A stretch of 64,000 bases of DNA from Octopus vulgaris (Eukaryota), in the NCBI GenBank assembly GCA_951406725.2, contig OX597832.1, forward strand, positions 10,230,001-10,294,000, written 5' to 3'. Numbering within the stretch: position 1 is the stretch's first letter; each line of letters starts with the position of its first letter. The notes under the pieces are model-generated. The model saw nothing but the letters and a program-made list of their open reading frames with translations. It was not told the origin of the DNA and did no database searches. Positions 6,335-41,640 of this stretch are shown in pieces. The translations under genes were made by a program, and so were the position numbers.

Positions 6335-6399
6335 AAATTAACAGAATGAATGAAAAAACTAACAAGTCTGTGACAGATTTCAGAACATATATAAATGGG

Positions 6400-6448
6400 T
6401 CTTATAGCAGTTTCCGGGATATTTTATATATAACCCTTCATCGGAGAC
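6400..6448 (-). ncRNA. Degenerate type I hammerhead motif near (TA)n
   Basis: Minus strand gtct-CCGATGA-agggttatat..atatcccg-GAAAC-tgct-ATA-agac; U4C change and stem III mismatch. Confidence 0.5.
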
Positions 6449-16557: not shown

Positions 16558-18840
16558 AAAGGCACTCACGAAGGTCCATAATTGGAAATCCCCCGGTAAA
16601 GATAAGGTGCCGAATTTCTGGCTCGCATCGCTCCCATGCGCACACGGTAAGCTAGTTCAGCTGCTCAATGGAATTATGAGAGACCCAAAGAAAACACCTG
16701 AATGGTTAGCAAGTGGTATTACTTACCTACTCCCAAAGAATAACGAAACCAACCTTCCAAAAAACTATCGGCCTATAACCTGTCTATCCACCACGTATAA
16801 AATCCTAACATCTATCCTGGCGGAGAAAACATATGCATTCATGGAGAAGAACGATATTTTCCCCATTGAACAAGAAGGGTGCCGCCGAGGCACTTATGGA
16901 TGCAGAGATCAACTGCTAATCAATCGTATGATCCTTGAGAACTGTCACAACAAGCGCAGAAATCTCAGCACCGCATGGATTGACTACAAAAAGTCCTTCG
17001 ACAGTATACCGCATCCATGGATCTTGAGATCGCTGGACATCTTCAAAATTTCCCCTGTGATTTCAAACTTCCTGAAGCACAATATGTCGTTGTGGAATAC
17101 GAATCTCCAATTATACCACTCTAATGGAGTACTTGCCTCAGAAAATATAAACATCAACTGTGGAATTTTTCAAGGTGACTCACTTTCACCTTTAATATTC
17201 TGCATAGACCTAATACCCCTTACAAGTGAATTAAACAGAACAGCGTATGGGTATAAAATTGCCAATAAAAACATAAGCCATCTATTTTATATGGATGACT
17301 TAAAACTTTATGGTAAAGACAATAATGAACTTGAAGGCCTATTGCGCACCGTGAAAGCATTCAGCGATGACATCGGGATGGAGTTTGGACTTCAGAAGTG
17401 TGCCAAGGCCACTTTCCAGAAAGGGAAAGTGAAGACCACAAATTCAGTCGTGTTAGATGTTGACACAGTCATAAGAGAGCTTGAGCAAGAACAAACATAC
17501 AAATATTTAGGGATAAATGAAGGCTCTGGTATTCAGCGTGCAAGCATGAAAGAGAAAATCAGGAAGGAATGTTATAGGAGAGTTCGTGCAGTCCTGAAAT
17601 CTGAACTAAATGCACGTAACAAGGTGTTAGCTATAAATTCCTTAGCAGTTCCAGTTGTTACTTATAGCTACAATGTGTTGAACTGGAATATGAGTGAAGT
17701 AAAGAATATAGATAGGAAAATACGCAAGCTGCTGAGTTGTAATAGGATGCACCACCCAAAGGCAGACGTAGATCGCCTTTACCTTCCCAGAGCCCAAGGA
17801 GGTCGAGGCCTGATCCAATTTGAACTAGCTTACAAAACAACCACAATTGAACTGGCCAAATATCTCGAGATATCGAATGACTGGATGCTAAAGCTCGTGG
17901 AAAATCACGGGAGACGAAAGAAGCTTCATTCTATCATAAAGGAAAGCAACAAATTTGCTATTGATCTCGTGCAGGATACCCCAACGGAACAACCCGAGGG
18001 AAGTACGGCAACTATTGTTGCAAAGAAGGTGAAAATGATGGCAATGAAAAAAGCGCACGAGCAATTGGCTGATAGGTGGGAGGAGAAACCTCTGCACGGC
18101 AAATATGTGACCGCAGCAAACAAGCTGATGTTGACCAGAAGCAAACCCATCAGTGGCTACGGAGCTCAGGGCTAAAAGCAGAGAGCGAAGGTTTCATCCT
18201 GGCTGCTCAAGATCAAAGCCTATTAACCCGGAACTACCAGGCCAATGTGATGAAAAATGGAGCAGACCCAAAATGCCGATTCTGCAACGACATGATTGAA
18301 ACAGTGGACCACCTAATCTCTGGATGTAAAGCCTTAGCACCAGTGGAGTATAAATTAAGACATGACAGAGTTGGCCAATATCTCCACTGGCTAATAAGTC
18401 GGTATTACAATATCAAAACTGCCGACAAGTGGTATAATCACCACCCTGAGGCTGTAACTGAAGGAGAAAATGTAACCATTCAGTGGGACTTTCCAGTACA
18501 TACAGACCGAACCATCAAGGCCAATAAACCAGATATTGTTGTGAAAGACCAAAACAATAAAGTTTGCTTATTGATCGACATGTGCATCCCCTGTGATCAT
18601 AATATCTCAGCGAAAGAGTTTGACAAGCTCAGAAAATATAAAGACCTACTCATTGAAATTGAGAAAATGTGGCATCTCAAGGCGGTTACAATACCAGTGA
18701 TCGTAGGAGCACTAGGAATGATCAAGAAGGGAACCGAAAATTATATGAGAATGATCCCTGGCTTACCATCCCTGCAAGAAGTGCAAAAGATTGTCTTAAC
18801 TGGTACATCACACGTATTGAGAAGAGCATTGTCGATGTGA
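16558..18840 (+). pseudogene. Dong/R4 polyprotein, N-terminally truncated, one frameshift near 18111
   Basis: ORFs 16379-18175 and 18076-18840 join as HGKYVT/RSKQADVD if one C is restored at 18111-18112; the poly-M/I/R N-terminus is only microsatellite read-through. Confidence 0.9.
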
Positions 18841-27920: not shown

Positions 27921-28323
27921 TACAGTAGCATCCACCCTTAGGGGTAGCCATATTGAGATGGCAAATATACGTCACGATGTGTTACCGCTACTGTATATAA
28001 CTCACTTTGATATTTATCATTGTTTGATTTCACTTTTTCAATATCAGCGACAGTGGACGCTGGAAAAAGTATAAGTATTTGTGAAGGAAATCTAATTCTC
28101 GCCGACAACTATGATTGTCACACGCTGACGAGAGGTCAATACCTCGAAACTCGAGTCCGTGTGTATCATAAGTTGAAGGCGGGAAGGATGACTTCCCTTT
28201 GCAAATACTGACAGGACACAGAAAGTGTGTCTATGGCCAGCTGGAGGAGTGTGTCCTCCTGGGGCTAAAAACTACAGTAGCATCCACCCTTAGGGGTAGC
28301 CATATTGAGATGGCAAATATACG

Positions 28324-28327
<4 letters not shown>
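27921..28327 (+). mobile_element. 352-bp hammerhead-containing non-coding element (retrozyme / pLTR-like) with identical 55-bp terminal direct repeat, flanked by (TA)n
   Basis: 27921-27975 is identical to 28273-28327; hammerhead at 28119-28163; no protein-like ORF. Confidence 0.8.
28119..28163 (+). ncRNA. Type I hammerhead ribozyme, intact core
   Basis: cacacg-CTGACGA-gaggt(caat)acctc-GAAAC-tcga-GTC/cgtgtg; all three stems pair; predicted cleavage after 28157. Confidence 0.93.
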
Positions 28328-28378
<51 letters not shown>

Positions 28379-38948: not shown

Positions 38949-38950
<2 letters not shown>

Positions 38951-39292
38951 CGCAAGAGTGGCTGTGTGGTAAGTAACTTGCTTACCAACCACATGGTTCC
39001 GGGTTCAGTCCCACTGTAGTGTCTTCTACTATAGCCTCGGGCCGACCAATGCCTTGTGAGTGGATTTGGTAGACGGAAACTGAAAGAAGTCCGTCGTATG
39101 TGTGTATATGTTTGTGTGTCTGTGTTTGTCCTCCCTAGCATTGCTTGACAACCGATGCTGGTGTGTTTACGTCCCCGTCACTTAGCGGTAGAATAAGTAC
39201 TGGGCTTACAAAGAATAAGTCTCGGGGTCGAATTGCTCGACTAAAGGCGGTGCTCCAGCATAGCCGCAGTCAAATGACTCAAACAAGTAAAA

Positions 39293-39895: not shown

Positions 39896-39951
<56 letters not shown>

Positions 39952-40069
39952 AATCAAGGAACGGCCATAATAGGCCATTCACCCACTAGAAATAACAGCC
40001 AAAAGCTTTAACCGCAAAATAACATTAATACCGTAAACCAGGAGAAAATTGAAAAACTTTTACCCTGAA

Positions 40070-40176
40070 ATTTCTTAGACGATGCACCGTTTCATCTACC
40101 GTTTAATGGTAAACTAACCTGATTAAATTAAATCAAGCCAATCCACCATAGGCCCTTAGACTCATCAGTAAGAAAT
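40070..40176 (-). ncRNA. Type I hammerhead ribozyme with extended stem II (copy 1)
   Basis: Reverse complement of the 40698-40804 motif. Confidence 0.85.
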
Positions 40177-40697
40177 AGCCAAATCGGAACAGATATTTTT
40201 CACGAGGCATTCCTCTTGCTACCTCGGCAATATCTGACCTAAAATTTTCAAATCATCGCACTCGCGCCAAATTTATCGGCAGCAAATAAACCACCGATTC
40301 CGTTACGGAACTAACCAGAAAATTCATAATTAATCAATATAGGGTGGCAAAAAAATTTTGTAGAATTCTTTTGCCACCAGCGGCAACTAGTAGGAAAAAA
40401 TTAAATAGTCATAAACCATTTTTACGTTCAACATCACAATCAAGGAACGGCCATAATAGGCCATTCACCCACTAGAAATAACAGCCAAAAGCTTTAACCG
40501 CAAAATAACATTAATACCGTAAACCAGGAGAAAATTGAAAAACTTTTACCCTGAAAGGTTTATCGGCAGCAAATAAACCTCCGCTAATCATACAATCATA
40601 AATTTGGCGCGAGTGCGATGATTTGAAAATTTTAGGTCAGATATTGCCGAGGTAGCAAGAGGAATGCCTCGTGAAAAATATCTGTTCCGATTTGGCT

Positions 40698-40804
40698 ATT
40701 TCTTACTGATGAGTCTAAGGGCCTATGGTGGATTGGCTTGATTTAATTTAATCAGGTTAGTTTACCATTAAACGGTAGATGAAACGGTGCATCGTCTAAG
40801 AAAT
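40698..40804 (+). ncRNA. Type I hammerhead ribozyme with extended stem II (copy 2)
   Basis: atttctta-CTGATGA-gtcta...tagat-GAAAC-ggtgcatc-GTC/taagaaat; 8-bp stem I; predicted cleavage after 40796. Confidence 0.85.
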
Positions 40805-41178
40805 TTCAGGGTAAAAGTTTTTCAATTTTCTCTGGTTTACGGTATTAATGTTATTTTGCGGTTAAAGCTTTTGGCTGTTATTTCTAGTGGGTGAATGGCC
40901 TATTATGGCCGTTCCTTGATTGTGATGTTGAACGTAAAAATGGTTTATGACTATTTTTTTTTCCTACTAGGCCGCTGGTGGCAAAGGAATTCTACAAAAT
41001 TTTTTTGCCACCCTATATTGATTAATTATGAATTTTCTGGTTAGTTCCGTAACGGAATCGGTGGTTTATTTGCTGCCGATAAATTTGGCGCGAGTGCGAT
41101 GATTTGAAAATTTTAGGTCAGATATTGCCGAGGTAACAAGAGGAATGCCTCGTGAAAAATATCTGTTCCGATTTGGCT

Positions 41179-41285
41179 ATTTCTTACTGATGAGTCTAAG
41201 GGCCTATGGTGGATTGGCTTGATTTAATTTAATCAGGTTAGTTTACCATTAAACGGTAGATGAAACGGTGCATCGTCTAAGAAAT
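41179..41285 (+). ncRNA. Type I hammerhead ribozyme with extended stem II (copy 3)
   Basis: Same motif 481 nt downstream of copy 2; predicted cleavage after 41277. Confidence 0.85.
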
Positions 41286-41506
41286 TTCAGGGTAAAAGTT
41301 TTTCAATTTTCTCCTGGTTTACGGTATTAATGTTATTTTGCGGTTAAAGCTTTTGGCTGTTATTTCTAGTGGGTGAATGGCCTATTATGGCCGTTCCTTG
41401 ATTGTGATGTTGAACGTAAAAATGGTTTATGACTATTTAATTTTTTCATACTAGGCCGCTGGTGGCAAAAGAATTCTACAAATTTTTTTTGCCACCCTAT
41501 ATTGAT

Positions 41507-41546
<40 letters not shown>

Positions 41547-41640
41547 AATGAGGTAATCAGATCGGATGGTTCATATTTATAGATATTTATTTATATATTA
41601 CATTTTTTACATATATATCATATCATTCAGATCATATCAT

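What the first reader, a model, noticed from the sequence alone, without database searches (positions are those of the whole stretch)
40698..40804. Atypical hammerhead: ~68-nt stem II with a 19-bp G-U-rich helix and a palindromic stem III
Seen: between CUGAUGA and GAAA lies gtcta/tagat, an internal loop, then atggtggattggcttgatt pairing fully with aatcaggttagtttaccat (19 of 19 pairs, six of them G-U) around a 6-nt loop. The wobbles work only in the ribozyme polarity, which argues for selection at the RNA level. Stem III (ACGGUGCAUCGU) is self-complementary, allowing dimeric folding between tandem copies. Stem II in typical type I motifs is only a few bp, so standard descriptors may miss this one (inference). 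The closing pair is G10.1-U11.1 rather than G-C.
Basis: partly seen in the sequence, partly recalled or inferred. Interest (0 to 1): 0.75.

Follow-up and report, generated by a model that had tools for sequence, protein, structure and literature searches.

The report
Long-armed, kissing-loop hammerhead in a retrozyme
This is one of about 3,500 genomic copies of a hammerhead-type RNA motif with an unusually long side arm, predicted to cut itself as a pair, inside a protein-free jumping repeat whose two-armed insertions show the same fixed-end footprint as the Penelope-like retrotransposons of this genome that likely copy it.

Summary
It sits in each ~485-nt unit of a non-coding repeat, one of about 3,500 copies of an old, diverse superfamily. 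Across subfamilies stems I and lower II show double compensatory changes, the long helix stays 96% paired, and the stem III loop is a palindrome in 3,486 of 3,574 copies (TGCA or TATA), supporting dimer folding. G-U richness, 19/19 and the G-U closing pair are subfamily traits, not conserved. The arm is a normal 4-5-bp stem II, an internal loop and a variable distal hairpin; the loop likely kisses a stem I loop (GCC/GGC to ACC/GGU). Insertions sit head-to-head in (TA)n; 67 of 67 classifiable ones have one arm ending at each of two fixed sites, as do 18 of 19 autonomous Penelope-like insertions. Verdict: new variant of animal non-LTR retrozymes. Cleavage, circles and expression are untested; the partner element is unidentified. 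The scan already reported this family and its two-armed layout on other DNA.

The parts
39947..41513 (.). Whole insertion: two head-to-head arms of the ~485-nt repeat inside a (TA)n tract
39947..40556 (-). Left arm (1.27 units); its 3' end at 39947 is fixed end E1, about 130 nt after the predicted cut
40070..40176 (-). Hammerhead copy on the - strand
40557..40597 (.). Junction of the two 5' ends, with a 25-nt inverted piece of the unit (40559-40583) and 14 further bases
40598..41513 (+). Right arm (1.9 units); its 3' end near 41510 is fixed end E2, about 230 nt after the predicted cut
40694..40696 (+). GGC just 5' of stem I; likely partner of the stem II internal loop
   Evidence: inferred
40698..40804 (+). 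Type I hammerhead of the finding; predicted cut between 40796 and 40797
40713..40780 (+). Stem II: 5-bp lower stem, internal loop (GCC at 40721-40723), 19-bp distal helix 40725-40768
40784..40795 (+). Palindromic stem III; hairpin -0.2 kcal/mol alone, -17.5 as a duplex of two copies
40893..40926 (+). Hairpin 1 and the short motif after it, ending at site E1
40977..41029 (+). Hairpin 2 and a similar short motif after it, ending at site E2
41179..41285 (+). Second + strand hammerhead copy, 481 nt downstream

Best explanation
The motif is a type I hammerhead with a long stem II in every ~485-nt unit of a non-coding tandem repeat (an animal non-LTR retrozyme); it is predicted to cut multimeric transcripts into unit-length RNAs, likely as a dimer joined through the palindromic stem III and likely braced by a three-pair kiss between the internal loops of stems I and II, and the RNA is likely copied into (TA)n tracts by a Penelope-like element's enzyme starting once at each of two fixed sites. 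Shown: core, stems, covariation, copy number, two-armed layout, the one-of-each end rule, and the same rule in autonomous Penelope-like elements of this genome. Inferred: cleavage, dimer, kiss, circularisation, the trans-acting enzyme. The distal helix likely hangs off the loop as a tolerated extension: pairing is kept, while length (about 5-21 pairs), sequence and G-U content vary.
For: Covariation, 49 of the 74 distinct copies (near-duplicates and single-copy variants left out): 94.1% of cells paired against 88.8% shuffled (0 of 500) and 26-47% slid; both sides changed in 4 of 8 stem I pairs and 4 of 5 lower stem II pairs; long helix 95.7% paired, 11 of 19 pairs change on one side only (G-U to Watson-Crick), 1 on both. 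N7, the free core position, takes all four bases. Stem III loop TGCA in 2,545 and TATA in 941 of 3,574 matches found without a loop constraint; a TACA array was also seen. Kiss: first pair G-C 95, A-U 20, G-U 10, unpaired 7 of 132, with G-C, G-U and A-U on successive branches of one clade. Ends: 183 of 191 3' ends fall in two windows; of 76 head-to-head elements 67 have one E1 and one E2, none has two alike, 8 have one end elsewhere, 1 was not classed; 163 of 191 abut a TA run; 7 of 7 further two-armed loci agree. Three young autonomous families (open frames of 781, 775, 811 aa; RT plus GIY-YIG shown for the first two) insert in (TA)n with two ends 30-40 nt apart, one of each in 18 of 19 two-armed loci. 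PMC11167929 links such tails to two RT start sites.
Against: No cleavage, transcript or circle was shown. No autonomous element with a homologous terminal repeat was found among the 65 loci screened, and their ends do not share the retrozyme's end motif; the 100-nt tail is longer than the 30-40 bp described (PMC8557442). Compensatory counts reflect few events because copies are related (pairs changed on both sides: 9 observed, 9.8 shuffled). The kiss rests on one clear double change plus one old copy; its two C-G pairs were anchored by my script, and a conserved GGGU 3' of stem I could pair with the same loop (83% against 91%). The 10.1-11.1 pair is mismatched in 46 of 132 copies. 8 of 9 Xenopus retrozyme dimers did not cleave in vitro (10.64898/2026.07.22.740005), and the anole element did not need its hammerhead for insertion in vitro (PMC11167929).
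Confidence: 0.8

Rival explanations
1. The units are the terminal repeat (pLTR) of an autonomous Penelope-like element not yet found, and the arrays are its 5'-truncated copies rather than a separate non-autonomous family.
For: Layout, tail and (TA)n target are those of Penelope-like insertions (PMC8557442 passages); only first-listed hits were sampled.
Against: Arrays of up to 9 head-to-tail units with no coding DNA between them; the four repeat loci with a Penelope-like ORF piece in the same stretch had it outside the insertion (L081 read in full: separated by a TA run); no homology to three young autonomous families.
Confidence: 0.08
2. The element is a Penelope-mobilised retrozyme, but it is copied from linear multimeric transcripts; the hammerhead is slow or protein-dependent and no circle is involved.
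For: 5' ends of arms are spread around the whole unit with only a mild bump just after the cut (16 in the first 15-nt bin against about 8 per bin, noisy); 39 element-private variants lie in a single unit; PMC11167929 found unprocessed RNA to be the main substrate.
Against: Core and stems are kept across subfamilies as far apart as 72% and beyond; leaving out two elements that are sole members of their subfamily, 10 private variants are shared by all units of an element (9 across both arms) against 6 shared by only some; other animal retrozymes form circles (PMC7229834).
Confidence: 0.25
3. The long distal helix has its own selected job (protein docking, RNA stability or small-RNA precursor) apart from catalysis.
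For: Stem II is 43-70 nt in 131 of 132 copies; the helix is 95.7% paired and its A/U-rich tip is nearly constant; the short-stem pattern found 40 matches, mostly unrelated motifs.
Against: Length, sequence and G-U content vary widely; the whole unit is strongly self-paired (circular z -3.9 to -8.9), so this helix may be one of many. This is compatible with the best explanation, not exclusive of it.
Confidence: 0.35
4. A chance hairpin in a satellite amplified at DNA level.
For: Young subfamilies are nearly identical, so copy number alone proves nothing.
Against: Compensatory changes, dispersed insertions with fixed 3' ends and variable 5' ends.
Confidence: 0.01

Closest known systems
Animal non-LTR retrozymes (Cervera and de la Pena 2020, PMC7229834, parts 2-4 of 6 read, supplement not readable; Li, Clavereau and Pollet 2026, 10.64898/2026.07.22.740005, parts 1-3 of 5 read)
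   Same: Non-coding tandem units with one type I hammerhead each, low GC, strongly self-paired unit, co-occurring Penelope-like elements.
   Different: Unit 466-497 nt (above the 150-450 bp of the 2020 paper, inside the 51-972 bp of the 2026 one); stem II of 43-70 nt instead of about 4 bp plus loop; dispersed head-to-head insertions with two fixed ends, which the text I read does not describe. Circles not shown here.
Endonuclease-bearing Penelope-like elements (Craig et al. 2021, PMC8557442, passages; Frangieh et al. 2024, PMC11167929, parts 1-2 of 4)
   Same: Inverted 5'-truncated arm, tail at one end only, (TA)n target, hammerhead upstream of the 3' end, two RT start sites.
   Different: No ORF; tail about 100 nt holding two hairpins; arms are multimers; the strict one-of-each rule is counted here (67 of 67) rather than noted as 'often'.
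Canonical and minimal metazoan type I hammerheads with palindromic stem III (Cervera and de la Pena 2014, PMC4209133, passages)
   Same: Core, palindromic stem III thought to act as a dimer.
   Different: There helix II is 4-8 bp, stem III 1-2 bp and G10.1-C11.1 highly conserved; here stem III has 4 potential pairs, the closing pair is free, and stem II carries an internal loop and a long hairpin.
Pseudoknot-stabilised hammerheads (Perreault et al. 2011, PMC3088659, passages)
   Same: Watson-Crick pairing between stems I and II as the tertiary contact, reported for all three types (about 40%).
   Different: Here the candidate contact is only three pairs and joins two internal loops, with a free helix beyond; not tested biochemically.

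Membership tests
Type I hammerhead ribozyme | Core CUGANGA ... GAAA ... UH with three stems, stem I open | tested here: met
Type I hammerhead ribozyme | Compensatory changes in the stems | tested here: met
   stem I 4 of 8 and lower stem II 4 of 5 pairs changed on both sides; related copies, so few independent events
Type I hammerhead ribozyme | R10.1-Y11.1 closing pair | tested here: inconclusive
   paired in 86 of 132, mismatched in 46; PMC3088659 reports a natural mismatch there
Type I hammerhead ribozyme | [quoted passage not shown] | tested here: inconclusive
   three-pair kiss with one clear compensatory path; an alternative partner exists
Type I hammerhead ribozyme | Self-cleavage | not testable with these tools
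   no assay; no raw RNA reads offered
Animal non-LTR retrozyme | Short tandem units, each with a type I hammerhead, at least two consecutive | tested here: met
Animal non-LTR retrozyme | No coding capacity | tested here: met
   no frame of 100 aa or more lies within 39971-41582
Animal non-LTR retrozyme | Strongly self-paired monomer | tested here: met
   6 of 6 representative units, z -3.9 to -8.9 (antisense -2.2 to -8.9)
Animal non-LTR retrozyme | Expression as linear and circular monomer RNA | not testable with these tools
   only contigs of runs not on record as RNA
Penelope-like-type insertion | Inverted 5'-truncated arm, one-sided tail, (TA)n target | tested here: met
   same in autonomous elements
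Autonomous Penelope-like element | RT plus GIY-YIG ORF between the repeats | tested here: not met
Derivative of a Penelope-like pLTR | Sequence homology to the terminal repeat of an autonomous element | tested here: inconclusive
   none among 65 loci screened; most of the genome's families were not seen

The most novel reading that the evidence does not exclude
A new hammerhead architecture in which two internal loops kiss by Watson-Crick pairs, leaving stem II free to carry a cargo hairpin of any length, works only as a dimer; and its RNA circle presents two hairpin-marked start sites 100 nt apart to a dimeric Penelope-like enzyme that primes both ends of a cut in (TA)n at once, always one site per end, rolling round the ring to make the multimeric arms. 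The one-of-each rule would then be the general footprint of Penelope-like retrotransposition.
Probability: 0.3. Interest if true: 0.75.

Novelty: new variant of a known kind. Interest (0 to 1): 0.52.

Why it matters
Which enzyme copies animal retrozymes, and how Penelope-like elements make their inverted, one-tailed insertions, are open questions in the papers read (PMC7229834, PMC8557442, PMC11167929, the 2026 preprint). This family gives a small, young, protein-free substrate with two mapped start sites, a countable rule that autonomous elements share, and three candidate enzymes with intact frames in the same genome, so the question becomes a bench test. For ribozyme work it shows thousands of hammerheads that Rfam misses, natural evidence for dimer folding (a loop that changed from one palindrome to another), and a stem II that tolerates a 5-21-pair extension.

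Tried and rejected
Rfam scan: 0 hits. Covariation within the window's own subfamily: copies almost identical, so older subfamilies were needed. Expression: no RNA holder listed; runs guessed to be RNA are contigs and show presence only. Arm 5' ends piling up at the ribozyme cut: 12 of 146 at +2 to +30 against about 9 expected, mild and noisy bump; not accepted as evidence of cleavage in vivo. Homologous autonomous partner: not found; L081 and L138 are separate neighbouring insertions. Short-stem ancestor: 40 matches, mostly unrelated motifs, a few that look like deletion forms of the old subfamilies. G-U richness as a conserved trait: rejected. The idea that A-to-I editing created the G-U pairs stays open: the direction of substitutions was not determined. 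Palindrome counts from TGCA-anchored patterns (129 of 132) were set aside as circular and replaced; 2 of the 100 listed matches that I fetched were not family members. Single-template test: 42 private variants shared by all units, but 32 come from two elements that are sole members of their subfamily; 6 in some units, 39 in one unit; within-element distance below nearest-other in 23, equal in 8, above in 13 of 44: not decisive. Literature: no paper on hammerheads in octopus or on a 'long stem II' turned up; the library lacks most subscription journals, a recalled 2017 paper on dimeric Penelope hammerheads was not held, and the supplement of PMC7229834, which draws invertebrate retrozymes, could not be read and may show similar stems.

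Full report
Observation. The + strand folds better than shuffles (z -2.14, 4 of 200), the - strand does not (z -0.23). Rfam gives no hit in the window.

Context. The motif occurs three times in a 1,567-bp insertion (39947-41513) of a 481-nt unit: a - strand arm and a + strand arm joined at their 5' ends, both ending in (TA)n. No frame of 100 aa lies inside it. The genome is a 2.8-Gb animal assembly, called octopus-like in the scan's notes (not checked by me). The window's subfamily has 426 exact pattern matches. Contigs of runs from four coded organisms carry relatives and showed variant letters, which led to further subfamilies: 1,310 matches with A at 10.1, 278 with another stem III, including a family 72% identical over the unit, and 772 in older, diverse groups. 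A family-wide pattern without a stem III loop constraint gives 3,574 matches, control 0. The old groups are homologous along the unit and form a ladder-like tree.

Covariation. On 49 of 74 distinct copies (near-duplicates and single-copy variants left out), 94.1% of cells pair, against 88.8% in shuffles and 26-47% when slid; stem I has 4 of 8 and lower stem II 4 of 5 pairs changed on both sides; the long helix is 95.7% paired, with 11 of 19 pairs toggling between G-U and Watson-Crick, one double change, and one pair broken in 26 of 49. The copies are related, so these are few events, and the count of doubly changed pairs does not exceed shuffles (9 against 9.8). In 132 of 142 distinct copies kept (stem I at least 4 bp, upstream not a TA run), N7 takes all four bases, the base before the cut is C, A or U (loci were mostly chosen with that constraint), the 10.1-11.1 pair is A-U 42, G-U 24, A.A 23, G-C 20, A.C 17, other 6, stem II is 43-70 nt in 131, and the distal helix averages 18 pairs with 4.2 G-U in 84 young copies and 14 pairs with 1.7 G-U in 48 old ones. 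So the long arm is old and kept paired, but the G-U richness, the unbroken 19 pairs and the G-U closure belong to this subfamily only.

Anatomy. All groups show 4-5 pairs of stem II, then an internal loop with a nearly constant RCC, then the variable hairpin. The loop sits where loop II of a canonical hammerhead sits (4-bp helix II; PMC4209133). A GGY just 5' of stem I is complementary to it: the first pair is G-C 95, A-U 20, G-U 10, unpaired 7, and G-C, G-U and A-U lie on successive branches of one clade, with a C-G to U-A change in one old copy. Without anchoring, three pairs can form in 91% of copies against 46% for shuffled letters, but a conserved GGGU 3' of stem I reaches 83%. I rate the kiss as likely, not shown; base-paired stem I-II contacts are known (PMC3088659).

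Dimer. Stem III is worth -0.2 kcal/mol as a hairpin and -17.5 as a duplex and is open in the predicted monomer fold. Its four loop bases, unpaired in a monomer, are TGCA in 2,545 and TATA in 941 of 3,574 copies; an array with TACA and a copy with TGCG were also seen. A switch from one palindrome to another, one event, is what dimer folding predicts, as proposed for animal hammerheads (PMC4209133; PMC7229834).

Insertion. Of 116 elements from first-listed hits, 76 are head-to-head and 40 one-armed. 183 of 191 3' ends fall at E1 (about +130 from the cut) or E2 (about +228), and 163 abut a TA run. 67 head-to-head elements have one E1 and one E2, none has two alike (binomial p 1e-20), 8 have one end elsewhere, 1 was not classed. 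Seven further two-armed loci, four of them old, agree. Each end follows a covarying hairpin and a similar short motif. The 5' ends are spread round the unit. The genome holds at least three young autonomous Penelope-like families with open frames of 781, 775 and 811 aa (RT and GIY-YIG confirmed for the first two, the third is 53% identical to the first over its C-terminal 298 aa). They insert in (TA)n with two ends 30-40 nt apart, one of each in 18 of 19 two-armed loci (2 of 2, 4 of 4, 12 of 13). This is the inverted copy and one-sided tail of PMC8557442, tied to two RT start sites and to cutting and extension of both DNA strands in PMC11167929. No terminal repeat homologous to the unit was found in 65 loci, so the partner is not named.

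Template. Units of one element share private variants across both arms in some cases (10 after leaving out two sole-member elements, against 6 shared by some units and 39 in single units). That fits one circular template but also a homogeneous source array. All six representative units fold strongly as circles.

Mechanism. Shown: motif, constraint, layout, end rule. Inferred, in falling order of confidence: copying by a Penelope-like enzyme from two fixed internal sites (about 0.9); self-cleavage into units (0.85); dimer folding (0.7); loop-loop kiss (0.55); circular template (0.55).

Novelty. A new variant of animal non-LTR retrozymes. My nine searches found no description of this long-armed fold or of the end rule for retrozymes, within the limits named under Tried and rejected. 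The scan has already reported this family, its long stem II and its two-armed layout in other windows of this genome, and the layout in another genome; I had reached the end rule before those look-ups, and they are not independent support. In the summaries shown I saw no mention of the kiss, of the palindrome switch or of G-U richness being subfamily-specific.

Noticed in passing
window 27923-28330, hammerhead at 28119-28163 (+): A second, unrelated, short canonical type I hammerhead inside a ~355-bp unit with a partial repeat, between TA runs; probably the 359-nt retrozyme family of the scan's notes.
   Followed up: partly
window 16700-18840 (+): LINE-type reverse transcriptase frame (RVT_1, E 3e-28) continued in a second frame with a weak zf-RVT hit.
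   Followed up: no
window 38949-39290 (+): A short repeat between TA runs; similar text recurs beside other loci (L081 2060-2400, L128). It looks like a tRNA-headed SINE (label from recall, not tested).
   Followed up: no
L177 about 6360-6400; L144, L145, L141 3' regions: The 781-aa Penelope-like family and its relatives carry a hammerhead-like motif whose core starts UUGAUAA (U3 with A8 in place of C3 with G8), with a covarying stem II and a short palindromic stem III. Its linker has a CX4CX2C motif like that described for the Neptune clade (clade not tested).
   Followed up: partly
L121-L135: Other short-stem hammerhead families with a perfect palindromic stem III, clustered at the start of contig C3.
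   Followed up: no
L081 1290-1725; L299: A retrozyme copy inserted in the TA run at the 3' end of an 811-aa-family element; its left arm is only about 20 nt yet still ends at E2 while the right arm ends at E1.
   Followed up: yes
runs X6 and X20 laid on 40690-40815: Loose ends show a variant with GAGG or GGGG in place of the core GAAA, perhaps a catalytically dead subfamily; not looked for in the genome.
   Followed up: no
G000:C1:195860571-195868535: A long array of the TATA-loop subfamily, 3 units on - and 14 on +.
   Followed up: no
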